Source of the DNA: an uncultured virus (IMG/VR IMGVR_UViG_3300042868_013265)
Lineage: Duplodnaviria; Heunggongvirae; Uroviricota; Caudoviricetes
Virus record (IMG/VR): IMGVR_UViG_3300042868_013265
Span: 62,001-84,420 of that record
Length of the DNA stretch: 22,420 nt
Reading direction: 5' to 3' (one strand)
Shown piece after piece: positions 1 through 22,420 of this stretch (positions are counted from its first letter, which is position 1; each line of letters opens with the position of its first letter). The translations under genes and the position numbers were made by a program. The notes under the pieces are model-generated. The model saw only the letters and a list, made by a program, of their open reading frames with translations. It searched no databases and was not told where the DNA came from.

Positions 1-1
1 C

Positions 2-3000
2 ACAGGCTCTTCAGGCACATCGGGCTCGGCAGGTTCTTCAGGAACATCAGGCTCGGCAGGTTCTTCAGGAACATCAGGCACAGCAGGTTCGAGTGGTACT
101 TCAGGAACACGTGGTTCTTCAGGTTCATCAGGTTCTACAGGAACGAGCGGTTCAAGCGGAACAAGCGGTAGCACAGGTTCAAGCGGTTCAACGGGTTCGA
201 GCGGAACAAGTGGAAGTACAGGTTCTTCAGGCTCTACAGGCTCAAGTGGAACATCAGGTTCAAGCGGAACAAGTGGAAGCACAGGTTCAAGCGGCTCAAC
301 GGGTTCAAGTGGTACTTCGGGTTCATCAGGAACATCAGCATCAAGCGGAAGTTCAGGAAGTGCGGGTACCTCAGGTAGTTCAGGCACTTCAGGGGCAAAT
401 GGGTCGAGTGGCTCAAGCGGAACAGCAGGTTCTTCAGGAAGCGCAGGTTCTTCGGGTTCTACAGGTTCTTCAGGAACAAGCGGTTCATCAGGAACAAGTG
501 GTAGCGCAGGTTCTTCAGGCTCTACAGGCTCAAGCGGAACAAGCGGTAGCGCAGGTTCATCAGGCACATCGGGTTCTGCAGGCTCTTCAGGCACATCAGG
601 TGCAAATGGTTCAAGTGGCACAAGCGGTTCAAGCGGAAGCGCAGGTTCTTCGGGTTCTACAGGAAGTTCAGGAACCTCAGGTTCAAGTGGCACAAGTGGT
701 AGCACAGGTTCAAGCGGGTCAACAGGTTCAAGCGGAACGAGCGGTAGCGCAGGTTCTTCAGGAACATCAGGCTCGGCAGGTTCTTCAGGAACATCAGGCA
801 CAGCGGGCTCTTCAGGCACGTCAGGCACAGCAGGTTCAAGTGGTACTTCGGGAACACGTGGTTCTTCAGGTTCATCAGGTTCTACAGGAACAAGCGGTTC
901 AAGCGGAACAAGTGGAAGCACAGGCTCAAGCGGCTCTACAGGCTCAAGTGGTACTTCGGGTTCGTCAGGAACATCGGCATCAAGTGGAAGTTCAGGAAGT
1001 GCGGGTACCTCAGGTAGTTCAGGCACTTCAGGGGCAAATGGCTCGAGTGGCTCAAGCGGAACATCAGGGTCTTCAGGAAGCGCAGGTTCTTCAGGTTCTA
1101 CAGGTTCTTCGGGAACAAGCGGTTCATCAGGAACAAGTGGTAGCACGGGCTCAAGCGGTTCTACAGGCTCAAGTGGGTCTACGGGAACATCGGGCTCAAG
1201 CGGAACTTCAGGGGTAAATGGGTCAAGTGGTTCTTCAGGAACTTCGGGTTCTGCGGGCTCATCAGGAACGTCAGGTTCTGCGGGCTCTTCGGGAACGAGC
1301 GGAAGCGCAGGTTCAAGCGGAAGCACAGGTTCATCAGGTTCTACAGGCTCATCAGGAACGTCGGGTTCTGCGGGCTCATCAGGAACGTCAGGTTCTGCGG
1401 GCTCTTCGGGAACTTCAGGCACAGCAGGTTCAAGTGGAACATCAGGAACTCGAGGTTCTTCAGGTTCATCAGGTTCTACAGGCACTTCAGGCTCAAGCGG
1501 AACAAGTGGAAGCACAGGTTCAAGCGGGTCAACGGGCTCAAGCGGAACAAGTGGAAGTACAGGTTCAAGCGGTTCGACAGGTTCAAGTGGAACAAGTGGA
1601 AGTACAGGTTCATCGGGTTCTACGGGTTCAAGCGGTACGAGTGGCTCATCAGGAACATCGGCATCAAGCGGAAGTTCAGGAAGTGCAGGTACGTCAGGTA
1701 GTTCAGGAACATCAGGAGCAAACGGCTCATCAGGCTCATCAGGAACTGCAGGTTCGTCAGGTAGCGCAGGTTCTACAGGTTCTTCAGGTTCCTCAGGAAC
1801 TTCGGGTTCATCAGGAACAAGCGGAAGCGCGGGTTCAACAGGTTCATCGGGCTCAAGTGGGTCTACGGGAACATCGGGCTCAAGTGGCTCAAGCGGTACA
1901 TCAGGTGCAAATGGCTCGAGCGGCTCAAGCGGAACAAGCGGTAGTGCGGGCTCATCAGGAACTTCGGGTTCTGCAGGCTCATCAGGAACGTCAGGTTCTG
2001 CAGGCTCTTCGGGAACTTCAGGTACAGCGGGGTCAAGTGGAACGTCAGGAACGCGCGGTTCGTCAGGTTCATCAGGTTCAACGGGTTCTTCAGGAACTTC
2101 AGGCTCAAGCGGAACAAGTGGAAGTACAGGTTCATCAGGTTCAACGGGTTCAAGCGGAACCTCAGGCTCATCAGGAACATCGGCATCAAGCGGAAGTTCA
2201 GGAAGCGCGGGAACATCGGGCTCAAGCGGAACTTCAGGGGCTAATGGCTCGAGTGGAACAAGCGGTTCGAGCGGAAGCGCGGGTTCTTCAGGTAGCACAG
2301 GTTCATCGGGAACATCAGGCTCATCGGGTACGAGCGGAAGCACGGGTTCTTCAGGTTCTACGGGTTCAAGCGGAACAGCGGGTTCAAGCGGTACTTCGGG
2401 TTCTTCAGGCTCAAGTGGCTCTGCAGGTACATCGGGCGCAAATGGTTCTTCAGGAACTTCAGGTTCAAGTGGAAGCGCAGGCTCATCAGGGTCTACGGGC
2501 TCAAGCGGAACGAGTGGCTCTGCGGGTTCATCAGGAACAGCAGGAACTTCGGGGTCTTCGGGTACTTCAGGTACAGCAGGTTCAAGTGGTACTTCGGGTA
2601 CACGGGGTTCATCAGGTTCTTCAGGGTCTACAGGAACTTCGGGTTCAAGCGGAACTTCAGGGGCAAATGGCTCAAGTGGAACGAGTGGCTCAAGTGGAAG
2701 CGCGGGCTCATCAGGCTCTACGGGCTCAAGCGGAACAAGTGGTAGCACGGGTTCTTCGGGCTCTACAGGGTCATCAGGAACAAGTGGTTCTTCAGGTACA
2801 TCAGGCTCAAGCGGTAGCGCGGGTTCAAGCGGTAGCGCAGGAACATCAGGAGCAAATGGCTCAAGTGGAACGAGTGGTTCTGCAGGAAGCGCAGGTTCTT
2901 CGGGTAGCACAGGTTCATCAGGAACTGCAGGTTCAAGTGGTACGGCAGGTTCTTCGGGTAGTGCAGGCTCAAGCGGGTCTACGGGTTCAAGCGGAACTTC

Positions 3001-5977
3001 GGGTTCAAGTGGCTCATCAGGAACATCAGGAGCGAATGGCTCAAGCGGTTCAAGCGGAACAAGTGGTTCTGCGGGCTCTTCAGGCACATCAGGAACTGCA
3101 GGCTCAAGCGGAACATCAGGAACTCGAGGTTCTTCAGGTTCATCAGGTTCTACAGGCTCAAGTGGGTCTACGGGTACGTCAGGCTCGAGCGGCTCAAGCG
3201 GAAGCGCGGGTACCTCAGGGGCAAACGGCTCAAGTGGTACAAGTGGGTCTTCAGGAAGTGCAGGTTCTACAGGGTCTTCGGGTTCATCAGGAACATCGGG
3301 TTCAAGCGGAACAAGCGGAAGTGCAGGTTCAAGCGGCTCTACAGGCTCAAGTGGCTCTACGGGCACTTCAGGCTCAAGTGGCTCGAGCGGAAGTGCAGGC
3401 ACATCGGGTGCAAATGGCTCAAGTGGTACAAGTGGTTCTGCAGGAAGTGCGGGTTCAAGTGGGTCTACGGGTTCGTCAGGAACTGCAGGTTCCTCAGGAA
3501 CGAGCGGTAGTGCGGGCTCAAGCGGCTCTACAGGCTCAAGTGGGTCTACAGGTACGTCAGGTTCCTCAGGCTCTTCAGGCACATCAGGAACTGCAGGTTC
3601 AAGCGGAACATCAGGAACTCGAGGTTCTTCAGGTTCTTCAGGTTCTACAGGCTCAAGTGGCTCTACGGGTACTTCAGGTTCAAGCGGAAGCGCGGGTACA
3701 TCGGGTGCAAACGGTTCTTCAGGAACATCAGGCTCAAGCGGAAGTACAGGTTCAAGTGGCTCTACAGGGTCAAGTGGAACATCAGGTTCTTCAGGAAGTG
3801 CGGGTTCTACAGGTTCTTCAGGGTCTTCAGGAACAGCGGGTTCATCAGGAACATCGGCATCAAGCGGAAGTTCAGGAAGCGCAGGTACTTCAGGGGCCAA
3901 CGGTTCTTCGGGTACTTCGGGCTCATCAGGAAGCGCGGGTTCTACGGGTTCATCAGGCTCAAGCGGAACAGCGGGCTCATCAGGAAGCGCAGGTTCAAGT
4001 GGTTCTACGGGTTCAAGCGGCACCGCAGGTTCAAGCGGAACTTCAGGTACACGCGGTTCATCAGGCTCAAGCGGTTCAGCGGGTACTTCAGGTGCGAATG
4101 GTTCAAGTGGTTCAAGCGGAACGAGTGGCTCTTCAGGAAGTGCAGGTTCAACAGGTTCGAGCGGTTCTACGGGTACATCAGGCTCAAGCGGCTCAAGTGG
4201 AACGAGCGGCTCTTCAGGAAGTGCAGGTTCAACAGGTTCGAGCGGTTCTACGGGTACATCAGGCTCAAGTGGCTCAAGTGGAAACACGGGTGCTGCGGGT
4301 TCATCAGGAACTTCGGGTTCTTCAGGAAGCGCAGGGTCAAGTGGTTCTACGGGTTCAAGCGGAACGAGCGGCTCATCAGGTAGCGCAGGCTCTACGGGTT
4401 CAAGCGGGTCTACGGGTACTTCAGGCTCAAGCGGCTCAAGCGGAAATACGGGTGCGGCAGGTTCTTCAGGAACGAGCGGCTCATCAGGTAGCGCAGGCTC
4501 TACGGGTTCTTCGGGTTCATCAGGAACTGCGGGTTCTTCAGGTACGTCAGGTACAAGAGGTTCATCAGGCTCAAGTGGTTCTACGGGTTCAAGCGGCTCT
4601 ACAGGTACGTCAGGCTCAAGCGGTTCAAGTGGAAACACGGGTGCGGCAGGTTCTTCAGGAACGAGCGGCTCATCAGGAAGCGCGGGTTCTACGGGTTCTT
4701 CAGGTTCTACGGGAACTTCGGGTTCGAGCGGTTCAAGTGGAAACACGGGTGCGGCAGGTTCTTCAGGAACATCGGGCTCAAGCGGTTCGAGCGGTTCAAG
4801 TGGAAACACAGGTGCGGCAGGTTCTTCAGGAACATCGGGCTCAAGCGGGTCAAGCGGAAACACGGGTGCAGCGGGTTCTTCAGGTACTTCGGGCTCAAGC
4901 GGTTCAAGTGGAAACACAGGTGCGGCAGGTTCTTCAGGAACTTCGGGTTCGAGTGGAAACACAGGTGCAGCAGGTTCATCAGGAACATCGGGCTCAAGTG
5001 GAAACACGGGTGCTGCAGGTTCTTCAGGTACTTCGGGCTCAAGTGGAAACACAGGTGCAGCAGGTTCTTCAGGCACAAGTGGTGTTAGTGGTGCAGCGGG
5101 TTCTTCAGGCACAAGCGGTGTCAATGGTGCGGCAGGTTCTTCAGGAACTTCGGGCGCGAATGGTGCGGCAGGGTCATCGGGTACGTCAGGAACAAGAGGT
5201 TCTTCAGGAACATCAGGTGCAAACGGTGCGAACGGTTCATCGGGTACAAGCGGTGTCAATGGTGCGGCAGGTTCTTCAGGAACTTCGGGCGCGAATGGTG
5301 CGGCAGGGTCATCGGGTACGTCAGGAACAAGAGGTTCTTCAGGAACATCAGGTGCAAACGGTGCGAACGGTTCATCGGGTACAAGCGGTGCAAACGGTGC
5401 AGCGGGTTCTTCAGGAACGTCAGGCTCAAGTGGTAATACAGGTGCTGCAGGTTCTTCAGGTACGAGCGGTACGAGCGTAGCCGTGAGCGGTACAACAAAC
5501 AGAATCGTTAAGTTTACGGCATCTACGACCATAGGTAACGCAAACGCGTCCGACGATGGAACGACATTCGAAGTCTTGAATACAGTTGGATTTAAGGCGG
5601 CCAAGTCGTTAGCAGTAGGTGCTTTGTCACCGTCAGCAACCACAGGTCGAATTGATGCTTCAAACGACATCGTAGCGTTCTCTACATCAGACAAACGCTT
5701 CAAAGAAAACGTGAAGCGAATTGAAAACGCCCTCGAGAAAATCAAGACAATCGGTGGATACTCATTCGATTGGCGCGAGGAAGGCTTCGAGGCTCACGGA
5801 TTCAAGGGAAGTGATGTCGGAGTAATCGCGCAAGAAATCGAGTCAGTGTTGCCCGAAATCGTGAAGGTAAAAGCAAACGGATTCAAGGGTGTACGTTATG
5901 AAAAAATCATCGCCTTGGTAATTGAAGCAATCAAGGAGTTGGATGATAAAGTGGAAAAACTAAAAAACAATCAATAA
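2..5977 (+). CDS. Giant Gly-X-Y (Ser/Thr-rich, Pro-free) collagen-like fibre protein with C-terminal peptidase S74 chaperone; 5'-truncated by the window edge, >=1991 aa
   Basis: Frame +2 reads TGSSGTSGSAGSSGTSGSAG... from base 2. Gly codons stay in 9-nt register from 5 to 5468 (5463 = 607 x 9). The frame continues without a stop into ORF 5483..5977 (...GTSGTSVAVSGTTNRIVKF...). That ORF has S74 motifs SDKRFKENV, YSFDW, DVGVIAQEIESVLPEIV and VRYEKIIALVIEAIKEL. Confidence 0.93.
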   Translation, partial: TGSSGTSGSAGSSGTSGSAGSSGTSGTAGSSGTSGTRGSSGSSGSTGTSGSSGTSGSTGSSGSTGSSGTSGSTGSSGSTGSSGTSGSSGTSGSTGSSGSTGSSGTSGSSGTSASSGSSGSAGTSGSSGTSGANGSSGSSGTAGSSGSAGSSGSTGSSGTSGSSGTSGSAGSSGSTGSSGTSGSAGSSGTSGSAGSSGTSGANGSSGTSGSSGSAGSSGSTGSSGTSGSSGTSGSTGSSGSTGSSGTSGSAGSSGTSGSAGSSGTSGTAGSSGTSGTAGSSGTSGTRGSSGSSGSTGTSGSSGTSGSTGSSGSTGSSGTSGSSGTSASSGSSGSAGTSGSSGTSGANGSSGSSGTSGSSGSAGSSGSTGSSGTSGSSGTSGSTGSSGSTGSSGSTGTSGSSGTSGVNGSSGSSGTSGSAGSSGTSGSAGSSGTSGSAGSSGSTGSSGSTGSSGTSGSAGSSGTSGSAGSSGTSGTAGSSGTSGTRGSSGSSGSTGTSGSSGTSGSTGSSGSTGSSGTSGSTGSSGSTGSSGTSGSTGSSGSTGSSGTSGSSGTSASSGSSGSAGTSGSSGTSGANGSSGSSGTAGSSGSAGSTGSSGSSGTSGSSGTSGSAGSTGSSGSSGSTGTSGSSGSSGTSGANGSSGSSGTSGSAGSSGTSGSAGSSGTSGSAGSSGTSGTAGSSGTSGTRGSSGSSGSTGSSGTSGSSGTSGSTGSSGSTGSSGTSGSSGTSASSGSSGSAGTSGSSGTSGANGSSGTSGSSGSAGSSGSTGSSGTSGSSGTSGSTGSSGSTGSSGTAGSSGTSGSSGSSGSAGTSGANGSSGTSGSSGSAGSSGSTGSSGTSGSAGSSGTAGTSGSSGTSGTAGSSGTSGTRGSSGSSGSTGTSGSSGTSGANGSSGTSGSSGSAGSSGSTGSSGTSGSTGSSGSTGSSGTSGSSGTSGSSGSAGSSGSAGTSGANGSSGTSGSAGSAGSSGSTGSSGTAGSSGTAGSSGSAGSSGSTGSSGTSGSSGSSGTSGANGSSGSSGTSGSAGSSGTSGTAGSSGTSGTRGSSGSSGSTGSSGSTGTSGSSGSSGSAGTSGANGSSGTSGSSGSAGSTGSSGSSGTSGSSGTSGSAGSSGSTGSSGSTGTSGSSGSSGSAGTSGANGSSGTSGSAGSAGSSGSTGSSGTAGSSGTSGSAGSSGSTGSSGSTGTSGSSGSSGTSGTAGSSGTSGTRGSSGSSGSTGSSGSTGTSGSSGSAGTSGANGSSGTSGSSGSTGSSGSTGSSGTSGSSGSAGSTGSSGSSGTAGSSGTSASSGSSGSAGTSGANGSSGTSGSSGSAGSTGSSGSSGTAGSSGSAGSSGSTGSSGTAGSSGTSGTRGSSGSSGSAGTSGANGSSGSSGTSGSSGSAGSTGSSGSTGTSGSSGSSGTSGSSGSAGSTGSSGSTGTSGSSGSSGNTGAAGSSGTSGSSGSAGSSGSTGSSGTSGSSGSAGSTGSSGSTGTSGSSGSSGNTGAAGSSGTSGSSGSAGSTGSSGSSGTAGSSGTSGTRGSSGSSGSTGSSGSTGTSGSSGSSGNTGAAGSSGTSGSSGSAGSTGSSGSTGTSGSSGSSGNTGAAGSSGTSGSSGSSGSSGNTGAAGSSGTSGSSGSSGNTGAAGSSGTSGSSGSSGNTGAAGSSGTSGSSGNTGAAGSSGTSGSSGNTGAAGSSGTSGSSGNTGAAGSSGTSGVSGAAGSSGTSGVNGAAGSSGTSGANGAAGSSGTSGTRGSSGTSGANGANGSSGTSGVNGAAGSSGTSGANGAAGSSGTSGTRGSSGTSGANGANGSSGTSGANGAAGSSGTSGSSGNTGAAGSSGTSGTSVAVSGTTNRIVKFTASTTIGNANASDDGTTFEVLNTVGFKAAKSLAVGALSPSATTGRIDASNDIVAFSTSDKRFKENVKRIENALEKIKTIGGYSFDWREEGFEAHGFKGSDVGVIAQEIESVLPEIVKVKANGFKGVRYEKIIALVIEAIKELDDKVEKLKNNQ
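4118..4279 (+). repeat. 81-bp near-identical tandem duplication inside the fibre gene
   Basis: ggaacgagYggctcttcaggaagtgcaggttcaacaggttcgagcggttctacgggtacatcaggctcaag occurs at 4118 and 4199. Confidence 0.85.
5111..5390 (+). repeat. 135-bp tandem duplication (2 copies plus 10 bp) inside the fibre gene
   Basis: acaagcggtgtcaatggtgcggcagg... starts at 5111 and again at 5246. A third start at 5381 diverges after 10 nt. Confidence 0.9.
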
Positions 5978-6654
5978 TGGCAGTTCCATCATCAAACATA
6001 AGTATGACGGCTATCTATCAGGAGGCGAACGCAGGTTCGCCTCCATCAGATTTAGCGGTGAGCGACTTATTCAAAAAATCATATTTTGAAAGTAATGCAT
6101 TTGGTGGCTCCCTTACATTTAATGCTTGGGGACAATATGGGAATGCGAGTGGAGCAGATAGGATTTATGGATTAAGTGCAAGTGATACCAATAACAATTT
6201 CAATCAGTTTGCGTCAAAAGTTTATTATATGGATAATTCAACTTATGCAAACTATGTAGATATTATTAATAATTTGAGTCCCCCCGCTCCCCCCGCGCCT
6301 CCTTTTGATAATGACATTGATGTATTTTGTAGATTATATGATTCTACAGGTACACATATTTATAGTTCATTTTTCCAAAGCGTATTTGCAGGTGGAAGTG
6401 TATCGCAAATATTCAGTAATACCACTGAACCGATTTTGGCAGTAGCATATTGGGAGGTTCAGTTTCAGCCTGTCAGTGGAAGTTTTGGTGGTACAACTTG
6501 TAATATTGGCATCAATAATACAAGTGTAGTAAGTGGTGGAACTATTAATGCAACAGGTATTACAACTTTTGATTTCAGCACTTTAGGAAGCGTAGCAGTA
6601 GGCTCAAGTTCGTCAGGGTATATTGGTACTTACTTTGATATTAGTATTGGTTGA
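5977..6654 (+). CDS. Probable fibre-associated virion protein (tip/adhesin-like), 225 aa
   Basis: TAATG-coupled to the fibre gene. The N-terminus MAVPSSNISMTAIYQEA...LAVSDLF resembles the MAxPxSxxIS motif of proteins that often follow phage tail fibres. A Pro linker (PPAPPAPP) precedes a beta-rich S/T/G/aromatic C-terminal domain. Confidence 0.55.
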   Translation: MAVPSSNISMTAIYQEANAGSPPSDLAVSDLFKKSYFESNAFGGSLTFNAWGQYGNASGADRIYGLSASDTNNNFNQFASKVYYMDNSTYANYVDIINNLSPPAPPAPPFDNDIDVFCRLYDSTGTHIYSSFFQSVFAGGSVSQIFSNTTEPILAVAYWEVQFQPVSGSFGGTTCNIGINNTSVVSGGTINATGITTFDFSTLGSVAVGSSSSGYIGTYFDISIG

Positions 6655-6655
6655 T

Positions 6656-6663
6656 TAAATTTG
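6656..6663 (+). promoter_or_regulatory. Bacteroidota sigma-70 -7 element (TAAATTTG)
   Basis: Matches TAnnTTTG, 21 nt upstream of the ATG at 6685. Confidence 0.45.
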
Positions 6664-6684
6664 TACAAAATTAAATATGTAATT

Positions 6685-6942
6685 ATGGAAAAAATATTAT
6701 TAACCGAAGAGGAATTAAATGAAAGCAGAATCATTAGCCAAATTCAGACCGATTTGAATTCACACGTAACAAAGTTTACAAGAGAAATAGAATCGCTAAA
6801 ATTGAAACGTAAATACGCCCTTGAAGAATTGAATGAATTGGATGAAAAAAACAAAGTCTTTTTTAAGGGAATCACCAACAAATATGGGTATGTTAAAATA
6901 AACCTTGAAACAGGCGAAGTAACCCCAATAGATGAAAAATGA
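6685..6942 (+). CDS. Small coiled-coil hypothetical phage protein, 85 aa
   Basis: ATG at 6685 (MEKILLTEEEL...) is preferred over TTG 6661, which overlaps the promoter motif. Heptad-like helix ending KYGYVKINLETGEVTP. Confidence 0.75.
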   Translation: MEKILLTEEELNESRIISQIQTDLNSHVTKFTREIESLKLKRKYALEELNELDEKNKVFFKGITNKYGYVKINLETGEVTPIDEK

Positions 6943-7412
6943 TAGTTGTTTTTTATGGTAAAAGAAACTCAGGAAAGACAACACTGTGTCGTGAGTTTTA
7001 CGGTTGGGTGAAGCAAAATTTACCTCTTAGGTGTCACTATTTAGATGCAGATAAACTGCGATTTGTTTATGGGTTAAAAGGGTTTTCAGAACAGACGGAA
7101 AGGGCTTTAATACAAAAAGCGATGGAAATATCGCGTTATGAGGAAAGTTTAAATGACGTTGTTTTGATTAGTATTTCTTTTGCATATAAAGACCAAAGAG
7201 CAATATTCGAAGAAAACAAAGGGATTTTATGGGTTCCGTTAACACACGATGAGTCTAAAAGACCTACCAATAAAAAAGAATTTGAAAATCCTGAATTTGA
7301 AAAATTAGAGAATGAAATTAACACATCTGAAAATGATGTTAAATCGGCATTGAATATGGTAATTCAACGCTACAAAGATTTTTGTGTAACTTCGCAATAT
7401 AAGGGGAAATGA
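6939..7412 (+). CDS. Adenylyl-sulfate (APS) kinase-like P-loop kinase, shortened CysC-like, 157 aa
   Basis: Walker A GKRNSGKTT. LDADKLR (cf. CysC LDGDNIR), GFSEQTER (cf. GFSxEDR), ISFAYKDQR (cf. ISPYRxDR) and FENP (cf. YExP) occur in CysC order. Confidence 0.7.
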   Translation: MIVVFYGKRNSGKTTLCREFYGWVKQNLPLRCHYLDADKLRFVYGLKGFSEQTERALIQKAMEISRYEESLNDVVLISISFAYKDQRAIFEENKGILWVPLTHDESKRPTNKKEFENPEFEKLENEINTSENDVKSALNMVIQRYKDFCVTSQYKGK

Positions 7413-7630
7413 CAACTCAACAGCAACAAAGCGCAATGATTGAAAAATGGGTAAATCGCATACTTCTTGGAATATGCGCATTTTTCTGTGCTCAATTATT
7501 TGCGGATATGAAAACTCAACGTCAGGACATAGAAGAAGTGAAATTGAGTAATGCGAGAATTGAAACGGAAATAAAGTACATCAGAGAAATGGTGGAGCCG
7601 TATCGAAATAATAAAATAGTTAACAATTAA
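7409..7630 (+). CDS. Small single-TM plus coiled-coil membrane protein (holin-like or virion membrane protein)
   Basis: Hydrophobic ILLGICAFFCAQLF followed by heptads. ATGA overlap with the upstream gene. Confidence 0.65.
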   Translation: MTTQQQQSAMIEKWVNRILLGICAFFCAQLFADMKTQRQDIEEVKLSNARIETEIKYIREMVEPYRNNKIVNN

Positions 7631-7636
7631 AAAATT

Positions 7637-9183: not shown

Positions 9184-9969
9184 TCAATCCTCTGTATATG
9201 CAAGTTTTGCATATAGTCCCTTTTTCGTAGGCTTTTTGTCATTTACAATAATAACCCTTTCTTCATCATCGAGAGTCAAAACTGCACCACCCTCAACTTG
9301 GTCATCAAAACTTAACGCTCTTGAACCTAAGGAATCTTTTGGCAACAGTTTCGACAATTGTTTCAGGACGATTTTTTTAAGCATCCAAAATTGACTGTCT
9401 TTTGCATCATTGAAATACAATTCATTCCTGTTTGGTAAATTGGCAACAATAGTTTCTAATTCTTTTTTTGACATCACCTTAAAAACCTTTTCTTCATCGC
9501 GGGTTTTTACCATTGCGTAAATGTGAGTAAGCGAAATGGATGTTCTCAAATCGTCTTTGGGTTTATGTCGTAAAATTGGCTCAAGTCCAAGTTCATAATC
9601 AAATTCATCCGCTTCGTGCACAGACTCGCACCAAATCGTTTTTACGCCATTATTTCGCATCAGGAGTGTAATCACACCTTTGTATCCCAAAATAGGCTTA
9701 ATATGCCCCTTATAAGGCAAAAAGAAGAACTCTCCAACAGAAGGATTGGGACTCAATCCTAATTCTGCGCAATGAATGATTGCCGCAAATAGGTTGCGTG
9801 GATTTTTTTGGAAGGCAAAGAGCATTTCTTCATTTCTTCTGACTTCAGTTAAAACGACCTGTTTAAATTGCGCAGGTGAAATCGAATGACTTTTTAACAA
9901 ATCAACCAACACCTTTTGTTCAAAGGTGTCAAGTTGTATGCTGAATTTAGTTAGTAGTGCGTTATCCAT
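9184..9969 (-). CDS. recT: RecT-family single-strand annealing protein
   Basis: AIIHCAELGLSPN...FFFLPY...ILGYKGVITL...VHEADEFDYELG...IYAMVK...VMSKKEL...MLKKIVLKQLSKLLPK matches the RecT pattern. Confidence 0.9.
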   Translation of the reverse strand: MDNALLTKFSIQLDTFEQKVLVDLLKSHSISPAQFKQVVLTEVRRNEEMLFAFQKNPRNLFAAIIHCAELGLSPNPSVGEFFFLPYKGHIKPILGYKGVITLLMRNNGVKTIWCESVHEADEFDYELGLEPILRHKPKDDLRTSISLTHIYAMVKTRDEEKVFKVMSKKELETIVANLPNRNELYFNDAKDSQFWMLKKIVLKQLSKLLPKDSLGSRALSFDDQVEGGAVLTLDDEERVIIVNDKKPTKKGLYAKLAYTED

Positions 9970-9976: not shown

Positions 9977-10192
9977 TTATTGCGATTGTAAAATACTAAG
10001 AGCCTCTTTCATTAGTCTGACTTTCTTTAAGTCATCCTGTGTGTACCCGTGAATGTCAAGGATGCGATTAAATGTTGTCATTTTTTGCTTCAGAATGTCA
10101 ATTGAATCGGACAATGATTCATTTACAAGCAACTCATTTACAATTTGTGTGGCTTCTTTACAATCAGGGAAAGGAATAAAATTTTCGTTCAT
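9977..10192 (-). CDS. Hypothetical helical protein, 71 aa
   Basis: TAATG-coupled to the upstream gene; fills the operon gap. Confidence 0.7.
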   Translation of the reverse strand: MNENFIPFPDCKEATQIVNELLVNESLSDSIDILKQKMTTFNRILDIHGYTQDDLKKVRLMKEALSILQSQ

Positions 10193-11409
10193 TATGGCTT
10201 GGGATTAATATCAATGAGTGATTTTTGACCGATGTGAATGAATAAATTGTCTTTGGTTAAAATCTGTTGCCTGTTTGGATATTCATCCGCAAATGTCAAT
10301 TCCCATCCGTGGTCTTTGTGAAATATTTTATTCTCGAAAACACGTCTGCGAAAAATTGAAGGATTGTTACCATAGTTGTTCATTTTAACTTCTTGCCATT
10401 TTAAAAATCCATTTTGCATTTCGTAAAAGTGCCTGTAATCTTTAGGGAAAGGGTTTTTCCAATAATATTCGTTCACAGAAGTTTCGGCTTTAATTTCATC
10501 CGTCTGAATATCAAATACCTGTGAAAACATAATTTGGTCAAATGCGGAATGCTTTTTCAAATAGTTAATGTGTTTACCCAAATCAAGAGGTCTTACGGAT
10601 TCCCAATCATCTTCAAGTAAAAATACAAACTCACTTGGACCCATCAAATGTTTAATCATATTGAATTTGTCAACGTAATCAAATTGACCATTATTGTTGA
10701 AAGTAATCAAATGGGCTTTTTCACCAAACAAGGCATCCAAATATAATTCCATTTTATATCGCTCTTCAGAAGTACTTCGGTCATCTAAAACCCAAACTTC
10801 ATTGAACATTGTACGGTAGTTTGGATTGTGTTTTTGTAGCGATTTGAGAGTCCGCATAAAGTAATCAAAACGTCTCCCTGAAGAAATTATCAAGTTAGGG
10901 GCAACGTGAGGCTCATAATTAATGTAATAGCCATATTCGTCATCTCCGAATAATAACTTCAAATTTGGGTATCGGCTTGCCATTATTTCGGGTGTTAAAT
11001 CGGGCTGATGGTGTGTCTCATAAATATTGCCTTCATATTCACCTTGTTCATCTAAATAAGGAACAGCAACTAAACATTTGATGTTGTACGTCTCGATTTG
11101 ACCCATCAATAATGTTGCATCAGATGGCGTAAGATGTTCAAGTACATCTCCCAAAATAAGATAATCATACATTAAAATATTGACTGTCATAATGTTTTGC
11201 TGATAAATGGTATTATATTTAGAAGCAAGGTTAAATTGAGCAATGTAAGGGTCCCAAATTTCAACAGCATCCATTGGGATTTTTAAAAGGTCTGCATAAG
11301 TCCCTGAACCCGCTCCAACATCAAGGACGCGGGGATTTGAGGTGTTTTGGAGTTCTAAGAGGATGTGCTCTCGAACATTGTGCTTGAATTTATTGTATGA
11401 GTATGGCAT
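10192..11409 (-). CDS. Fusion of a class I SAM-dependent methyltransferase (N-terminal) and a GT-A/GT2-like glycosyltransferase (C-terminal)
   Basis: N half: VLDVGAGSG and LILGDVLEHL. C half: IISSGRRFDYFMRTLKSL, VWVLDDRST, FVFLLEDDW (acidic metal-binding motif), NNPSIFRR and FIHIG. Confidence 0.8.
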   Translation of the reverse strand: MPYSYNKFKHNVREHILLELQNTSNPRVLDVGAGSGTYADLLKIPMDAVEIWDPYIAQFNLASKYNTIYQQNIMTVNILMYDYLILGDVLEHLTPSDATLLMGQIETYNIKCLVAVPYLDEQGEYEGNIYETHHQPDLTPEIMASRYPNLKLLFGDDEYGYYINYEPHVAPNLIISSGRRFDYFMRTLKSLQKHNPNYRTMFNEVWVLDDRSTSEERYKMELYLDALFGEKAHLITFNNNGQFDYVDKFNMIKHLMGPSEFVFLLEDDWESVRPLDLGKHINYLKKHSAFDQIMFSQVFDIQTDEIKAETSVNEYYWKNPFPKDYRHFYEMQNGFLKWQEVKMNNYGNNPSIFRRRVFENKIFHKDHGWELTFADEYPNRQQILTKDNLFIHIGQKSLIDINPKP

Positions 11410-11410: not shown

Positions 11411-12205
11411 TTAGTAAAACACTTGTTTAATTTTGGGTAACAGGGCGCGTTGAGGGCAAGTCTCGTTTAAATGACATTTGTTGCATCTTTTCATCTCAGG
11501 ATATGCTTTCCATCCATTTGCTGATTTGATTTCTCTTTTAAGTGCTTGAGAGACATTTTTCACCCCTTCTAAATGCTCCATCTCCTTGCTTGGGTCTACC
11601 AACACTTCAAAAATGCGAACATCCATTGGGTCTTTGGTATTGAATACAAAAAAGTAAAAAGGCACATCCGTGGTTTTAAATTTTTCTTTAGCAATAATTT
11701 TGTAATGAACTGCCTGAGTCAAAATCTTTTCCTTTTGCTCAAGGAAGTCTTCGTGCCAACCCATTTCATTCCATTTGTCATCTACCAAGCCCGAATATTT
11801 CAAATCGATGATACACTTCTTTCCATTCCACTTTGCAATAATATCGGTTGTGCAAGACATATTCAATTTTGAACTCACCAATTTCTTTCCAAAACTGAGA
11901 ATTTTGATGTTCATCGCTTTGAAAATTGCTTTGCAAAAAATCGAACTTTGAAATGCTCTTTCGTAATCTTCTGAAAGTTTTTCTTTTGCGGTTCCTTTGT
12001 ACACTTTATCGGGCTCAGGCGGTGTTCCATCACCATAAGCGGGAAGTCCTCCCGTGGCCATATATTCGAAATATTGACCAAGTTTCATTGCTTTAGTGGG
12101 TGTAGATTGAATACCGTCGAGGTATTTTGCTTTCACAACTAAGCCACACTCTTCCTTTACCTTGTATTCGGCAAAAGATTTCATAAAGGATTGACTAATT
12201 TTCAT
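11411..12205 (-). CDS. PD-(D/E)XK exonuclease, Cas4/AddB-like with Fe-S cysteines; likely RecE-role partner of RecT
   Basis: ISQSFMK start, TTDII...IIDLKYS and QAVHY motifs. One N-terminal Cys (EECG) plus C-terminal CNKCHLNETC. Confidence 0.8.
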   Translation of the reverse strand: MKISQSFMKSFAEYKVKEECGLVVKAKYLDGIQSTPTKAMKLGQYFEYMATGGLPAYGDGTPPEPDKVYKGTAKEKLSEDYERAFQSSIFCKAIFKAMNIKILSFGKKLVSSKLNMSCTTDIIAKWNGKKCIIDLKYSGLVDDKWNEMGWHEDFLEQKEKILTQAVHYKIIAKEKFKTTDVPFYFFVFNTKDPMDVRIFEVLVDPSKEMEHLEGVKNVSQALKREIKSANGWKAYPEMKRCNKCHLNETCPQRALLPKIKQVFY

Positions 12206-13426: not shown

Positions 13427-13460
13427 AAAAGGGGGAGTTTTGCCAACTTACTCCCCTTTT
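13427..13460 (-). terminator. Intrinsic terminator hairpin
   Basis: AAAAGGGGGAGT...ACTCCCCTTTT inverted repeat directly after the stop of 13462..13800. Confidence 0.7.
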
Positions 13461-13461
13461 A

Positions 13462-14180: not shown

Positions 14181-14184
14181 ATTT

Positions 14185-14355: not shown

Positions 14356-14424
14356 TGTTTTCGATTTTTACAATTCAATATTACAAACAAAAACTTATTT
14401 TGCAAAATAATTTTTGTGAATGGA

Positions 14425-14832
14425 TTAAAATTTTATTGAAAAGGGTAAAAAGTCGGGTTGAGGCTCCAAATACTTTTTCAATTCGTTGTAAATAACGATT
14501 GCCGTAAGTCTATCAGAGGCCATTTTTTTGCCTTTGAAAAATAACGATGCTTCTTCTTTTACGGTGTCGATGCATCCAAAACAATAAGTTCTTTTAGATA
14601 CAGGTGATGCATTCAATTGATAAGGTTGCAGTACAGCAAACTCTTGTCCACTTTCTTCGTATTTGTAGTAATTAAAGAAATACCCATTCAATCTTATTTC
14701 CTTCGCAACTGAGTCATTAAATATCAGTCGGTTTCTCTCTACTACATTCTTACCATCATTTGTAAGGTAGTCCAACATTGTTGCTCGGTCCAAAACCTTT
14801 TCGAAACGCATAGGTGTAAGTTGTAAATTCAT
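14425..14832 (-). CDS. Hypothetical protein, 135 aa
   Basis: Starts 5 nt after the stop of the PolB-like gene. Confidence 0.75.
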   Translation of the reverse strand: MNLQLTPMRFEKVLDRATMLDYLTNDGKNVVERNRLIFNDSVAKEIRLNGYFFNYYKYEESGQEFAVLQPYQLNASPVSKRTYCFGCIDTVKEEASLFFKGKKMASDRLTAIVIYNELKKYLEPQPDFLPFSIKF

Positions 14833-14837
14833 ATTTT

Positions 14838-15569
14838 TTAATATTCTAACTGTTTATAAGAAAATTGCTCGGCATCCAAGTACTCGTACACTTTACGACG
14901 ATTATCTGCGGTGTCTCGGTAATAAATGCAATCAGTTCGGTAAGCCTCAAAATCATTACCAAGTATTTCTGCAATCGATGACATCATTTCAAAGCATTTG
15001 TACCTGATACCACGGTACAGCAGATTAATTCTTGGGTCTTCACATTCAATAATAATAGGTTTGTTTTGCTTGACACCATTTTGAAATTCCTGATAAGCAA
15101 CGCTTCTGCCTAAAACTGCAAGTGCAGCCAATCGAATTACTTTCCAATCGTTTCCTTGCGCTTTATTAAAAGTGTTGTCGCTGATGATTCCAAGTTTATG
15201 TGCAATTACCCAATATGCACTATTGATATCGGTCCCCGTGATAACCCCATAGGAAGCATCGTAATCATAATTGGTTTGGTTTACAGGATATTTATCGGGA
15301 ACCGTCCAATTTGGATTTTGCTTCAAAAACTTTATAGCATCATTTTTCACCAACTTGAATATGAACAACTTGTTTGCAGGGAAACTTTTTGTGTCTCGAC
15401 TTTTGTAAATCGTTTCAACACCCTGATAAACAATCTGAGTCATAAACTTAGTTTCGCGGTAAATGAAATTTTCACCCATTTTTACCAAACGATTCATCAC
15501 CGATTTGGGATTTGCACTTGGTTGAAAACGACTTTCAATAATGCCAAAGGTTTCGCTCTTTTTTGCCAT
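14838..15569 (-). CDS. Minimal family-B DNA polymerase-like protein (palm motifs only), 243 aa
   Basis: Motif A-like ITGTDINSAYW (D114, Y119), divergent motif B-like WKVIRLAALAVLG (K143) and motif C-like AYRTDCIYY (D213). No exonuclease motifs seen, and only 30 aa follow motif C. Confidence 0.65.
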   Translation of the reverse strand: MAKKSETFGIIESRFQPSANPKSVMNRLVKMGENFIYRETKFMTQIVYQGVETIYKSRDTKSFPANKLFIFKLVKNDAIKFLKQNPNWTVPDKYPVNQTNYDYDASYGVITGTDINSAYWVIAHKLGIISDNTFNKAQGNDWKVIRLAALAVLGRSVAYQEFQNGVKQNKPIIIECEDPRINLLYRGIRYKCFEMMSSIAEILGNDFEAYRTDCIYYRDTADNRRKVYEYLDAEQFSYKQLEY

Positions 15570-15578
15570 TGTGATTTA

Positions 15579-15609
15579 CGAAATTAAGCAAACAAATATT
15601 ATTTTCAAA
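15579..15609 (-). promoter_or_regulatory. Bacteroidota-type promoter for the PolB-like gene
   Basis: Minus strand TTTG-N19-TAATTTCG, 9 nt before the ATG. Confidence 0.5.
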
Positions 15610-15618
15610 AATAATTTA

Positions 15619-16662
15619 TCAAACTTGTCCACCACGTTTGAATTTTTCAATAGCGGCTGTTGTTTGAGCAATAATTGTTGCCCGTTCTGCCAAGAATTCT
15701 TTCTTGGTCAAAACCTTCGAATCAAAAAGTGCTTTTGAATCAGCCAACAAACGCTCTTGACGGTCAAGTGCTTTTTGAATATTTTCCGCACGACGCTTGT
15801 CAAATTTAGGTTCGGCTTTTACCTTAGGTTCTTTTTTGACTTCCTCCTCTTTTGGAGCAACTTTTTTTGTCGGTCTCTCTCTTCCACGAATGTCCTTTTT
15901 ACGAGCCTTTTCCCTTTTTTGTTTTCCAAGTTCTTTTCTACGTTTGACAATCTCCCTACGTCGCGCCCTACGTTCTTCCAAAGTTTCTTCAGACAAAACC
16001 ATTGGTTGCGCCTCTTCAAAAGTCTCAGAAGGCGGTACCTGTTGTCCACCGACAAAAAGAGTGAATTGAATGAAATAAGAATCGGGCCGTCCATCGTCTT
16101 GCATATTTGGCCTAACCCGAACTTCTCCCTCCCAATATGGCTCCGACTCATTCTCGGGCATTTCCCCCTGAATATAATCGCGAACACTTTCAATGATGTC
16201 ATTTAACCCACTACCCTCATATGTGTATTCGCTTAATTCTATAATACCTGTGCTACCGTACTCTCCCGCATTGACTTCAAATCGTAAATTTTTACCTCCT
16301 GTTTCAGCGGTTAAATCCACGTCAATAAAATTGTCCAAATCAAACCAAAACACACCACTCAAAAGAGTGACGGGAATACTCAATGGATTGACAAAATCAC
16401 CGACGTTAATTACACCTGAACCTGTTAAGGCACGGTCAACTGATTCACGGATGTCGGCAACTTTAACTTCACGGCTACTAAGCCCTTTATACTCGGGATA
16501 GATTTTTTCTTTAATAAAGGCGGTCAGGTCTTTTCCCTTTAAAGGTTTTTCCTGTTTTTCAAGTTCTTTAGAAACTGTTTTTCGAACCTTTTGATAAAGT
16601 CTCGAGGCCCGCGCAATCTTTTTGCGAGTTGCTTGGGTTACTTTTTTTTTCTTGTTAGCCAT
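15619..16662 (-). CDS. Highly charged hypothetical protein (basic N-terminus, acidic core, basic helical C-terminus), 347 aa
   Basis: Long ATG ORF; K/R-rich ends and a D/E/aromatic-rich centre; ends KFKRGGQV. Confidence 0.85.
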   Translation of the reverse strand: MANKKKKVTQATRKKIARASRLYQKVRKTVSKELEKQEKPLKGKDLTAFIKEKIYPEYKGLSSREVKVADIRESVDRALTGSGVINVGDFVNPLSIPVTLLSGVFWFDLDNFIDVDLTAETGGKNLRFEVNAGEYGSTGIIELSEYTYEGSGLNDIIESVRDYIQGEMPENESEPYWEGEVRVRPNMQDDGRPDSYFIQFTLFVGGQQVPPSETFEEAQPMVLSEETLEERRARRREIVKRRKELGKQKREKARKKDIRGRERPTKKVAPKEEEVKKEPKVKAEPKFDKRRAENIQKALDRQERLLADSKALFDSKVLTKKEFLAERATIIAQTTAAIEKFKRGGQV

Positions 16663-21549: not shown

Positions 21550-21621
21550 AGCGGGGAAGTGTAGTGGTTGCATTCTTGGCTCATAACCAAGAGGAAGTAG
21601 GTTCGATTCCTACCCCCGCTC
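21550..21621 (+). tRNA. tRNA with CAT anticodon (Met-like; atypical; CCA not encoded)
   Basis: Acceptor AGCGGGG/CCCCGCT, D arm GTGT-AGTGGTT-GCAT, anticodon arm CTTGG-CTCATAA-CCAAG and T arm GTAGG-TTCGATT-CCTAC. Confidence 0.9.
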
Positions 21622-21634
21622 CTAAATTACAAAT

Positions 21635-22276
21635 ATGGAACTTGAAAAATATGTGTATCCCGAAAATCACGGTGAATTGGCAGAATCTTTTTATGATGAA
21701 ATTTATCACGGACACGAGTACGACAGGTACTTCAAAATAAATAAATACGACACGATTATTGATTGCGGAGCGTTCATAGGAATGTTTACCAATTATGCTA
21801 TCACGCAAGGCGCGATGCGTATTATCACCGTTGAATGTGAAACCCCATATTACAATTGCTTAATTAAAAACGTCAGCAACATCAGAGTTGAAACTCTTTT
21901 TGCAAAAGTGTCTCAAGAAAATATACCAAGTGATAATCCCAAGGTTCCACCTTCAATTACAATTGAAGAAATTATGAATCAAAAGAACTTACCTAAAGTC
22001 GATATGGTAAAAATGGATATTGAGGGTGCAGAATGGGGTGTTTTAATTAATATGGACGATGATGTTATGAAGAGGGTGGATAAGTGGGCTATTGAAGTTC
22101 ATTTGGATTGGAGTCAAAACGATACAGTTTGGGCAGGTCACGGTAGAGACTTTGATGGGCACCTTTTAAGCAAACTTGTATTCGTGATGGAAAAGTTCTC
22201 TAAGAATGGCTTTAAAGTCAATTACGAGCAGATACACAAAGATTGCAGGCTTGCAATGTTGTATGCGTACAAATAG
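21635..22276 (+). CDS. FkbM-family SAM-dependent methyltransferase
   Basis: TIIDCGAFIGMFT, ITVE, VDMVKMDIEGAE and AIEVH motifs. Confidence 0.9.
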   Translation: MELEKYVYPENHGELAESFYDEIYHGHEYDRYFKINKYDTIIDCGAFIGMFTNYAITQGAMRIITVECETPYYNCLIKNVSNIRVETLFAKVSQENIPSDNPKVPPSITIEEIMNQKNLPKVDMVKMDIEGAEWGVLINMDDDVMKRVDKWAIEVHLDWSQNDTVWAGHGRDFDGHLLSKLVFVMEKFSKNGFKVNYEQIHKDCRLAMLYAYK

Positions 22277-22326: not shown

Positions 22327-22419
22327 TTAAGGGGTACTTGTACCCCATTTACCCCTTTTCCTTTCCCTGAGAGCCTCCTTTACCCTGTTACCGTTTACTG
22401 TTACCGTAACACTCTTCGG
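22327..22419 (-). CDS. 3' end of a leftward gene entering from beyond the window
   Basis: Open frame PKSVTVTVNGNRVKEALRERKRGKWGTSTP* stops next to the terminator. Confidence 0.4.
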   Translation of the reverse strand, partial: PKSVTVTVNGNRVKEALRERKRGKWGTSTP

Positions 22420-22420
22420 T

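What the first reader, a model, noticed from the sequence alone, without database searches (positions are those of the whole stretch)
1..22420. Apparent total absence of GATC, AGCT, CATG, CTAG, CCGG and the non-palindromic CCAG/CTGG
Seen (manual scan, could miss isolated sites): none of these 4-mers in 22.4 kb, where tens of each would be expected from base composition. Other palindromes are present (GTAC, TCGA, ACGT, TGCA, GCGC, CGCG, GGCC, GAATTC). Established: phages purge host restriction sites. Inference: the host range carries many 4-base restriction-modification systems. Loss of both CCAG and CCGG while CCTG/CAGG is abundant goes beyond CCWGG avoidance and points to an asymmetric CCAG or CCRG target, possibly an undescribed defence specificity. 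It also suggests the phage DNA is not globally shielded by modification.
Basis: partly seen in the sequence, partly recalled or inferred. Interest (0 to 1): 0.7.

Follow-up and report, generated by a model that had tools for sequence, protein, structure and literature searches.

The report
Virus genome purged of restriction sites
An uncultured lake-water virus has removed essentially every copy of seven four-letter DNA words that bacterial restriction enzymes typically cut, even giving up the amino-acid pair proline-glycine to do so, which makes it an unusually extreme example of a known way of escaping host defences.

Summary
The window has 0 GATC, AGCT, CATG, CTAG, CCGG, CCAG and CTGG. The whole 84,420-bp genome has a single CCAG and nothing else, against about 1,400 sites expected. 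Synonymous-codon shuffles give 68-357 copies per word, so codon and dinucleotide bias do not explain it.

Independent assemblies of diverged relatives show the same purge, but with a different word set in each lineage. That rules out an artefact and marks each word as a separate selective target.

CCAG/CTGG is avoided without CTAG in several lineages and without CCGG in one. It is therefore its own asymmetric target, not CCRG and not my own CYRG idea. A CCAG-specific methyltransferase is already published for Helicobacter pylori (PMC10689673).

Avoidance works by context-dependent codon choice. Where that is impossible (Pro-Gly = CCNGG), the dipeptide is lost: 1 seen against about 48 expected. 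The one survivor, in the conserved jelly-roll protein, is the genome's only CCAG.

No DNA methyltransferase or nuclease gene was found. The host is probably a freshwater Bacteroidota. Verdict: known phenomenon, extreme member. Relatives hint at 3-4-bp CAG-centred targets.

The parts
1..22420 (.). Whole window: zero copies of GATC, AGCT, CATG, CTAG, CCGG, CCAG and CTGG on either strand, in coding and non-coding DNA alike
   Evidence: Exact counts. Markov and base-composition expectations. Codon-shuffle null for the whole genome.
1..5977 (+). 3' part (1,991 codons) of a 5,338-codon Gly-X-Y (collagen-like, Ser/Thr-rich) ORF, 55% G+C. It lacks all seven words although it is G+C-rich and repetitive. 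CAGG recurs with a 9-base period.
   Evidence: ORF lists, sequence, composition, k-mer table for bases 1-5500.
9184..9969 (-). RecT-family single-strand annealing protein (context gene; not a DNA-modification enzyme)
   Evidence: PF03837 E 3e-28. phrog_148 E 2e-44. TIGR00616.
10192..11409 (-). 405-aa protein with a generic class-I SAM methyltransferase domain. It was checked as a possible DNA methyltransferase and looks like the sugar or small-molecule type.
   Evidence: Methyltransf_23 below the Pfam cut-off. Atlas neighbours are Methyltransf_11/23/25, often fused to glycosyltransferases. No PDB relative.
11411..12205 (-). PD-(D/E)XK-like protein (DUF3799), the likely exonuclease partner of RecT. 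It is the only nuclease-like domain found and is not a restriction-enzyme family.
   Evidence: PF12684 E 3e-8.
21550..21622 (+). tRNA-Met gene (anticodon CAT)
   Evidence: ARAGORN.
21635..22276 (+). FkbM-family methyltransferase. It is one of six FkbM-type genes in the genome and is not a DNA methyltransferase family.
   Evidence: PF05050 E 3e-10. TIGR01444 E 3e-15.

Best explanation
The window belongs to an 84.4-kb genome of an uncultured lake-water virus. The virus is probably a tailless, jelly-roll-capsid virus of Bacteroidota.

The genome has been cleared by natural selection of every copy of at least six independent short restriction targets. These are GATC, AGCT, CATG, CTAG, CCGG and the asymmetric CCAG/CTGG, which includes CCWGG. 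The longer words RGCGCY, CGSCG and GRCGYC are also cleared. With no site to bind, host restriction endonucleases cannot cut the incoming DNA, so the virus needs no protective methylation.

The clearing is achieved codon by codon through context-dependent synonymous choice. Where no synonymous escape exists (Pro-Gly = CCN GGN = CCNGG), the amino-acid pair itself has been lost.

Shown here: the counts, the null models, the codon mechanism, the dipeptide loss, and the conservation and mosaic pattern among relatives.

Inferred: that the agents are host restriction enzymes, that each word corresponds to a separate enzyme specificity circulating among host strains, and that the host is a Bacteroidota.
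For: 1. Total absence against about 1,400 expected sites, with other 4-bp palindromes near expectation.

2. Codon-preserving shuffles never come near zero.

3. The mechanism is visible in codon choice:
- Asp GAT is used 0 of 107 times before C, but 58-81% of the time before A, G or T.
- His CAT is used 0 of 60 times before G.
- AGC is used 0 of 95 times before T.
- CTA and CTG are each used 0 of 150 times before G.
- CCA is used 1 of 208 times before G.
- Met (0 of 424) and Trp (0 of 261) never follow a codon ending in C.

4. Pro-Gly is the only dipeptide that cannot be encoded under the ban. It is seen once against 48 expected, while Gly-Pro is seen 30 times.

5. The single Pro-Gly is the genome's only CCAG. 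It lies in a conserved S-P-G motif of the 233-aa jelly-roll protein. Of 53 motif matches in the fetched loci, 51 are S-P-G and 2 are S-P-N; the 51 encode that Pro as CCA (25) or CCT (26) and never as CCC or CCG. L072, the one lineage that tolerates CCGG, uses CCC GGC. L104, L090, L021 and L096 have replaced the Gly.

6. Independent assemblies of relatives at 59-96% identity in that protein also show total purges, with lineage-specific word sets. Of 63 loci of 7 kb or more, GATC is avoided in 62, CCGG in 53, CCAG and CTAG in 42 each, AGCT in 36, GGCC in 31 and CATG in 25.

7. The 40 listed differences of a roughly 1% diverged strain in another run create no forbidden site. The null expectation is 2.8 and P(0) = 0.057, so this is weak support.

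8. No DNA methyltransferase or restriction-enzyme family was found in the 78 ORFs of 90 aa or more scanned with Pfam and PHROGs, or in the 67 of them scanned with NCBIfam.

9. Site elimination is an established anti-restriction strategy, mostly against orthodox Type II enzymes (PMC6286503, abstract and section 13 read).
Against: - The host is not identified, so no depleted word could be matched to an actual host enzyme.
- The only genome-collection hits are two short MAG contigs with conflicting labels, Bathyarchaeia and Ca. Planktophila. They are probably mis-binned.
- About 70% of the ORFs have no family. A very divergent methyltransferase, nuclease or modification pathway could therefore be hidden.
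- Relatives were examined only as loci of about 7-24 kb, not as whole genomes. Several loci are the same or nearly the same virus, so the tallies are not independent events.
- The passages I read of PMC10689673 describe a CCAG methyltransferase and no CCAG endonuclease.
Confidence: 0.82

Rival explanations
1. One degenerate specificity explains several words at once. The candidates are CYRG (= CCAG, CTGG, CCGG, CTAG; my own idea) or CCRG.
For: In the focal genome and its closest relatives, all of CCAG, CTGG, CCGG and CTAG are absent together. A homodimer with a degenerate half-site would give exactly the CYRG set.
Against: The words separate in relatives. CCAG/CTGG is avoided while CTAG stays common in four loci: L095 (CCAG 1 seen/84 expected; CTAG 32/65), L100 (1/60; 21/46), L047 (1/74; 50/68) and L107 (3/46; 45/48). 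CCAG is avoided while CCGG is kept in L072 (2/64; 8/23). CCGG and CTAG are avoided with CCAG normal in L008, L018, L053 and L066. One search of the held paper library found no paper pairing 'CYRG' with restriction enzymes.
Confidence: 0.04
2. The virus encodes its own frequent-cutting nucleases, for example to degrade host DNA as chloroviruses do, and protects itself by carrying no sites.
For: Earlier notes of this scan report giant viruses whose GATC or CCGG loss goes with a virus-borne nuclease/methylase pair (unchecked AI notes). About 70% of the ORFs here are unannotated, and restriction enzymes are hard to recognise by sequence.
Against: Pfam and PHROGs on all 78 ORFs of 90 aa or more, and NCBIfam on 67 of them, found no restriction-enzyme, HNH, MutH/Sau3AI or DNA-methyltransferase family. 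The only nuclease-like domain is the RecT-partner PD-(D/E)XK protein. This reading would need six to ten different nucleases in each genome, swapped between close relatives.
Confidence: 0.07
3. The pressure comes partly from modification-dependent (Type IV or IIM) nucleases. Sites methylated by one host strain's methyltransferases become targets in the next strain, so having no site is the only safe state.
For: Inference only. Total rather than partial elimination, and universal loss of GATC (62 of 63 loci), would help against both DpnII-like and DpnI-like enzymes. GATC-specific Type IIM sites show reduced counts in all phage genomes examined in PMC6286503 (section 13).
Against: There is no direct evidence here. 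This is a variant of the main explanation (host nucleases select against sites) rather than an alternative to it.
Confidence: 0.06
4. The absence is an artefact of sequencing or assembly, or a by-product of base, dinucleotide or codon bias.
For: None found.
Against: The same purge appears in independent assemblies from many samples, at 59-96% identity in the 233-aa protein. Twenty lake-water runs from 18 studies hold the stretch. Markov and codon-shuffle nulls are exceeded by tens of standard deviations. ORFs are intact, with a coding density of 96%.
Confidence: 0.01

Closest known systems
Restriction-site avoidance in prokaryotic viruses (Rusinov et al. 2018, PMC6286503; abstract and section 13 read)
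   Same: Short, mostly palindromic Type II targets are under-represented or eliminated in dsDNA, chiefly non-temperate, viruses. The principle is 'no sites, no cleavage'.
   Different: In that survey only 7.1% of (Type II site, genome) pairs are eliminated, and under 0.5% for other enzyme types. Here six tetranucleotide targets and at least three longer ones are all at zero in one 84-kb genome. One of them is an asymmetric 4-mer, and the proteome has lost a dipeptide.
CCAG-specific DNA methyltransferase of Helicobacter pylori A45, and CCAG methylation in Thermacetogenium phaeum (PMC10689673; passages read)
   Same: It shows that an asymmetric 4-bp CCAG specificity exists in bacterial methylation systems. 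In A45 it sits alongside CATG, GATC and other 4-bp motifs.
   Different: Only methylation is shown there. I saw no cognate endonuclease in the passages read. The organisms are unrelated to the likely host here, and I made no sequence comparison with that enzyme.
CCWGG systems (EcoRII/Dcm type; from my own knowledge, not from a call)
   Same: CCWGG is avoided in nearly all relatives, even where the 4-mer CCAG is normal. The tolerated Pro-Gly site is always CCAGG or CCTGG.
   Different: In the focal genome CCAG/CTGG is absent in every flanking context (1 seen against about 390 expected). A CCWGG enzyme alone, with about 77 sites expected, cannot explain this.
Earlier notes of this scan on other viruses with multi-word purges (e1-6084496, e1-5600007; unchecked AI notes)
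   Same: They also report many restriction-type words removed, in two cases with effects on protein sequence.
   Different: They concern different viruses and different word sets. Here GATC is purged rather than enriched, and no virus-borne methylase or nuclease was found.

Membership tests
Restriction-site avoidance (anti-restriction by site elimination) | Word counts far below composition-, Markov- and codon-aware expectation | tested here: met
   0 or 1 seen against 81-414 expected (Markov) and 68-357 (codon shuffles).
Restriction-site avoidance (anti-restriction by site elimination) | The effect is specific to some restriction-type words while comparable palindromes are unaffected | tested here: met
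   GTAC, TCGA, ACGT, TGCA, GCGC, CGCG, GGCC, AATT, TTAA and ATAT are near expectation.
Restriction-site avoidance (anti-restriction by site elimination) | [quoted passage not shown] | not testable with these tools
   Host unknown. The genome-collection scan gave only two short MAG contigs with conflicting labels.
Restriction-site avoidance (anti-restriction by site elimination) | The pattern is heritable and varies by lineage, as expected from differing host enzyme repertoires | tested here: met
   Mosaic of totally avoided words over 63 loci and a 57-row tree.
Restriction-site avoidance (anti-restriction by site elimination) | No self-protection by virus-encoded DNA methylation or hypermodification | tested here: inconclusive
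   No such family was found in the 78 ORFs of 90 aa or more (NCBIfam on 67 of them). About 70% of the ORFs have no family.
Single degenerate target CYRG or CCRG | All member words are avoided together wherever CCAG/CTGG is avoided | tested here: not met
   L095, L100, L047 and L107 keep CTAG. L072 keeps CCGG.
Asymmetric CCAG-specific restriction-modification | CCAG and its complement CTGG are absent in all flanking contexts, beyond CCWGG | tested here: met
   1 seen against about 390 expected, while CCWGG alone expects about 77.
Asymmetric CCAG-specific restriction-modification | A CCAG-specific enzyme exists in bacteria | tested here: met
   Methyltransferase confirmed by knockout in H. pylori A45 (PMC10689673). 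This shows methylation only.
Asymmetric CCAG-specific restriction-modification | A cognate CCAG endonuclease is present in the host | not testable with these tools
Virus-encoded restriction/nicking systems (chlorovirus type) | The virus carries nuclease and/or methyltransferase genes for the avoided words | tested here: inconclusive
   None detected by three profile libraries. Restriction enzymes are often unrecognisable by sequence.

The most novel reading that the evidence does not exclude
The hosts of this virus family, probably freshwater and marine Bacteroidota, deploy restriction activities with very short asymmetric targets centred on CAG. No endonuclease is characterised for any of them, to my knowledge.

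The targets read from the virus genomes are:
- CCAG in the focal clade and many others.
- CAGG in another set.
- The bare trimer CAG/CTG in one subclade, depleted about 12-fold in nearly every flanking context, least in GCAGC.

If this is right, the word sets missing from a virus genome give a direct read-out of its host's defence repertoire and could be used to pair viruses with hosts.
Probability: 0.35. Interest if true: 0.75.

Novelty: new member of a known kind. Interest (0 to 1): 0.58.

Why it matters
The genome shows how far site elimination can go as a sole anti-restriction strategy. About 1,400 expected sites of six 4-bp targets are held at zero across 84 kb, and the cost reaches the protein level: Pro-Gly is effectively forbidden, and a conserved capsid-type motif is the one place where a site is tolerated.

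The family-wide mosaic covers at least 285 relatives in metagenomes, of which 80 were fetched. It is a natural experiment for three questions: which defence specificities circulate in uncultured freshwater and marine hosts, how fast avoidance is gained and lost, and whether viruses can be matched to hosts by comparing missing words with host methylomes.

The asymmetric CCAG, CAGG and CAG footprints point to short-target enzymes worth looking for.

Tried and rejected
- My own CYRG hypothesis (CCAG + CTGG + CCGG + CTAG as one degenerate palindrome) was rejected by relatives that separate the words.
- One search of the held paper library for 'CYRG' with 'restriction' returned a single unrelated paper.
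- One search for papers linking restriction-site avoidance to dipeptide or amino-acid loss in phages returned nothing relevant among the 12 rows listed. No paper held the phrase 'restriction site avoidance' together with 'dipeptide'. This is not proof that the idea is unpublished.
- Host identification failed. The tool draws no relatives for a virus record. The genome-collection scan gave only two short, conflicting MAG contigs. There is no cultured phage relative for the 233-aa or 1094-aa proteins. RecT hits are distant, at 35% identity or less, and taxonomically scattered.
- Whole-record counts of 4-mers in relatives were not possible because the pattern search needs at least six plain bases. 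Relatives were therefore judged on loci of about 7-24 kb.
- The first structure model of the 233-aa protein was poor (9-sequence alignment, pLDDT 50). A 51-sequence alignment gave pLDDT 65 with a confident beta-sandwich core.
- Foldseek found no PDB match at E <= 0.001. VIA-align gave only generic jelly-roll matches (best Z 6.8; viral capsid jelly rolls Z 5-6.6), which is within the range the tool calls common.
- The strain-difference test was only suggestive: 40 of 122 differences could be seen, none created a site, P = 0.057.
- Four earlier-findings look-ups were made. The one by place on this genome was empty, and the first word search returned nothing.
Full report
**1. The observation**

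The window contains no GATC, AGCT, CATG, CTAG, CCGG, CCAG or CTGG.

Expected duplex sites in the window, as maximal-order Markov / base composition, are:

| Word | Markov | Base composition |
|---|---|---|
| GATC | 60 | 82 |
| AGCT | 73 | 82 |
| CATG | 70 | 82 |
| CTAG | 22 | 82 |
| CCGG | 59 | 39 |
| CCAG+CTGG | 108 | 114 |

The first 6 kb is a 55% G+C repetitive gene. The other 16.4 kb taken alone is also empty, against 15-56 expected per word.

The window is the last 22,420 bp of an 84,420-bp single-contig virus record. In the whole genome the only occurrence of any of the seven words is one CCAG at position 35910. Markov expectations are GATC 234, AGCT 242, CATG 265, CTAG 81, CCGG 179 and CCAG/CTGG 414, about 1,400 sites in all.

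I ran 200 permutations of synonymous codons within each gene, keeping the protein sequences and per-gene codon usage. They give mean sense-strand counts of 336, 232, 93, 122, 68, 121 (CCAG) and 357 (CTGG). No single shuffle fell below 48 for any word.

**2. How the avoidance is achieved**

Codon choice depends on the neighbouring base exactly as needed:
- GAT is 0 of 107 Asp codons before C, but 58-81% before the other bases.
- CAT is 0 of 60 His codons before G.
- AGC is 0 of 95 before T.
- CTA and CTG are each 0 of 150 CTN-Leu codons before G.
- CCA is 1 of 208 and CCG 0 of 208 Pro codons before G.
- ATC is 0 of 219 after G.
- GCT is 0 of 390 after A.
- CAG is 0 of 106 after C.
- Met (424 codons) and Trp (261) never follow a codon ending in C.

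CCN GGN is CCNGG, that is CCAGG, CCTGG, CCCGG or CCGGG. Leaving out the giant repeat ORF, the proteome has 1 Pro-Gly against 48 expected, and 30 Gly-Pro.

That single Pro-Gly is the genome's only CCAG (CCA GGC). It lies in the C-terminal S-P-G-I-V motif of a conserved 233-aa protein. The regular-expression search for this motif matched 53 of the fetched loci. In 51 of these the motif is S-P-G, and its Pro is CCA (25) or CCT (26), never CCC or CCG; the other 2 have S-P-N. A lone CCWGG is therefore tolerated and CCGG never is.

The exceptions fit the rule:
- L072 is the only lineage that keeps CCGG (8 seen, 23 expected) while avoiding CCAG. It writes the pair as CCC GGC.
- L104, L090, L021 and L096 have replaced the Gly by Gln or Asn and carry no CCNGG at all.

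**3. Relatives**

Using the 1094-aa and 233-aa proteins I fetched loci from three collections:
- IMG/VR: 4 and 17 loci.
- Metagenomes: at least 285 relatives, of which the best 80 were kept.
- The genome collection: 2 short MAG contigs.

I analysed the genome plus the 62 fetched loci of 7 kb or more. I left out L001-L005, L009 and L010, which are the same virus. Several of the remaining loci are duplicates or near-duplicates, and L007 and L011 overlap on one contig. The tallies therefore count loci, not independent events.

With 'avoided' defined as expectation of at least 8 and observed at most 7% of expected, the tallies are:

| Word | Loci avoiding it (of 63) |
|---|---|
| GATC | 62 |
| CCGG | 53 |
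| CCAG/CTGG | 42 |
| CTAG | 42 |
| AGCT | 36 |
| GGCC | 31 |
| CATG | 25 |
| CGCG | 24 |
| GCGC | 18 |
| CAGG/CCTG | 14 |

A tree of the 233-aa protein (57 rows, quick IQ-TREE search, SH-aLRT support only) shows the word sets changing between neighbouring clades. For example, the sister groups of the focal clade additionally avoid GGCC, and one of them (L012/13/40) has also lost CATG avoidance.

Degenerate 5-mers are purged as well, in lineage-specific ways: CCWGG almost everywhere, and GGWCC, GCWGC, CTNAG, CGWCG, ACNGT and GANTC in subsets.

In the focal genome a 3rd-order Markov scan finds RGCGCY 0 seen/44 expected, CGSCG 0/25, GRCGYC 0/13 and CCGCGG 2/22.

Independent assemblies sharing total purges, but with different word sets, exclude an artefact. 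They also identify each word as a separate selective target.

**4. What the CCAG/CTGG loss means**

I first thought that CCAG, CTGG, CCGG and CTAG might be one degenerate palindrome, CYRG. Both fail:
- CCAG/CTGG is avoided while CTAG stays common in L095 (CCAG 1/84; CTAG 32/65), L100 (1/60; 21/46), L047 (1/74; 50/68) and L107 (3/46; 45/48).
- CCAG is avoided while CCGG stays in L072.
- CCGG and CTAG are avoided with normal CCAG in L008, L018, L053 and L066.

The loss also exceeds CCWGG, which expects about 77 sites against about 390 for the 4-mer. CCAG/CTGG therefore behaves as its own asymmetric 4-bp target.

Such a specificity is not unknown. Konanov et al. (PMC10689673; passages read) found CCAG methylation in H. 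pylori A45, abolished it by knocking out gene hp0944, and also saw CCAG methylation in Thermacetogenium phaeum. I saw no cognate endonuclease in those passages, and REBASE could not be consulted.

**5. Is the DNA shielded?**

Pfam and PHROGs were run on all 78 ORFs of 90 aa or more, leaving out the giant ORF. NCBIfam was run on 67 of those 78. None of them found a DNA methyltransferase, restriction enzyme or base-hypermodification family.

The methyltransferases present are six FkbM-type enzymes and one generic class-I SAM enzyme (window 10192-11409). The Atlas neighbours of the latter are sugar or small-molecule types fused to glycosyltransferases. About 70% of the ORFs have no family, however, so it is not proof.

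**6. Context**

- The virus is found in lake water: 20 runs from 18 studies hold at least 64% of the sampled words of window 6001-16000.
- A strain about 1% diverged in run X13 differs at 122 places in that stretch.
- Only 13 of 109 genes have a Shine-Dalgarno-like core, and upstream regions are A-rich.
- TAnnTTTG occurs 12 times in the forward sense in 3,269 bp of intergenic DNA, where I estimate about 1.5 by chance. That this is the Bacteroidota -7 promoter motif is from my own knowledge. Both features point to a Bacteroidota host. This is inference.
- No terminase, portal or HK97-type capsid family was detected.
- The conserved 233-aa protein models as a beta-sandwich (pLDDT 65 overall, 63-94 in the core at residues 55-200). 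It has only generic jelly-roll matches (best Z 6.8; PR772, phiCjT23, FLiP and PRD1 capsid proteins at Z 5-6).
- Earlier notes of this scan on related genomes read the family as large, tailless, membrane-containing viruses of Bacteroidota. My fold result is compatible with that reading but does not prove it.

**7. Comparison with what is known**

Site elimination is a long-known anti-restriction strategy. In the survey by Rusinov et al. (PMC6286503; abstract and section 13 read), 7.1% of (orthodox Type II site, genome) pairs are eliminated, and under 0.5% for other enzyme types.

This genome is an extreme member of that kind:
- Six tetranucleotide targets and at least three longer ones are at zero.
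- One of the targets is an asymmetric 4-mer.
- The cost is visible in protein sequence.

Earlier notes of this scan describe comparable multi-word purges in other viruses, in two cases with changes to protein sequence (unchecked). The scan has therefore seen this type of thing before, on other DNA.

**8. What remains open**

- The host is unidentified.
- The agents are unidentified. Host Type II enzymes are most likely. Modification-dependent nucleases or virus-borne nucleases are less likely.
- It is unknown whether the CAG-centred footprints in relatives reflect enzymes with 3-4-bp asymmetric targets. These footprints are CAGG/CCTG avoided in 14 loci, and the trimer CAG/CTG depleted about 12-fold in a subclade.

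Noticed in passing
Relatives L014, L015, L016, L020, L042, L043, L045 (whole loci): One subclade depletes the trimer CAG/CTG about 12-fold (for example 35 seen/414 expected, 39/505, 34/499). The depletion holds in nearly every flanking context and is least strong in GCAGC. The Leu codon CTG is used 0 of 427-537 times. Codon shuffles expect 122-164 CAG and 79-100 CTG, against 15-28 and 8-18 seen. This suggests a defence with a 3-bp target.
   Followed up: partly
Relatives L022-L025, L101, L104, L106: CAGG/CCTG, the mirror of CCAG/CTGG, is totally avoided (0/33, 1/55, 1/54, 0/35, 0/85), while CCAG/CTGG is normal in most of these loci. L106 avoids both.
   Followed up: partly
Genome 51961-67977 (window 1-5977 is its 3' end): A single 5,338-codon Gly-X-Y, Ser/Thr-rich collagen-like ORF at 55% G+C in a 39% G+C genome. 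The genome also carries many glycosyltransferases, six FkbM methyltransferases and an Aah/TibC-like protein O-heptosyltransferase (L001:4885-5805, TIGR04414 E 1e-39). This looks like a heavily glycosylated giant fibre protein.
   Followed up: partly
Many relatives, e.g. L012, L013, L036, L037, L060, L069-L082: The dipeptide Gly-Pro (GGN CCN = GGNCC) is absent (0 seen) where GGWCC and GGSCC/GGCC are avoided. This is a second dipeptide lost to restriction avoidance. The focal genome keeps Gly-Pro (30).
   Followed up: partly
Whole genome G000: Further words are absent: RGCGCY 0 seen/44 expected, CGSCG 0/25, GRCGYC 0/13 and CCGCGG 2/22 (3rd-order Markov). The hexamers GCGCGC, GTATAC, AGGCCT, CTTAAG and CGTACG are absent at lower expectations.
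   Followed up: partly
Genome intergenic regions, e.g. 8127, 8394, 9391, 13739, 14325, 30653, 32460, 35050, 80808, 80854, 83537: TAnnTTTG is enriched in intergenic DNA (12 forward hits in 3,269 bp), and Shine-Dalgarno cores are nearly absent (13 of 109 genes). These are Bacteroidota-type expression signals.
   Followed up: partly
Genome 35250-35951 (L002:16250-16948): A conserved 233-aa protein (at least 285 metagenomic relatives) with a jelly-roll-like beta-sandwich core. It is probably the small major capsid protein of a tailless virus. No terminase, portal or HK97-type capsid family was detected in the genome.
   Followed up: partly
Genome 27676-28791 (L002:8676-9788): A virus-encoded RelA/SpoT-type small alarmone synthetase domain fused to DUF2958 (PF04607 E 4e-16; PF11171 E 2e-12).
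   Followed up: no
window 21550-21622: A tRNA-Met gene, the only tRNA found in the genome.
   Followed up: no
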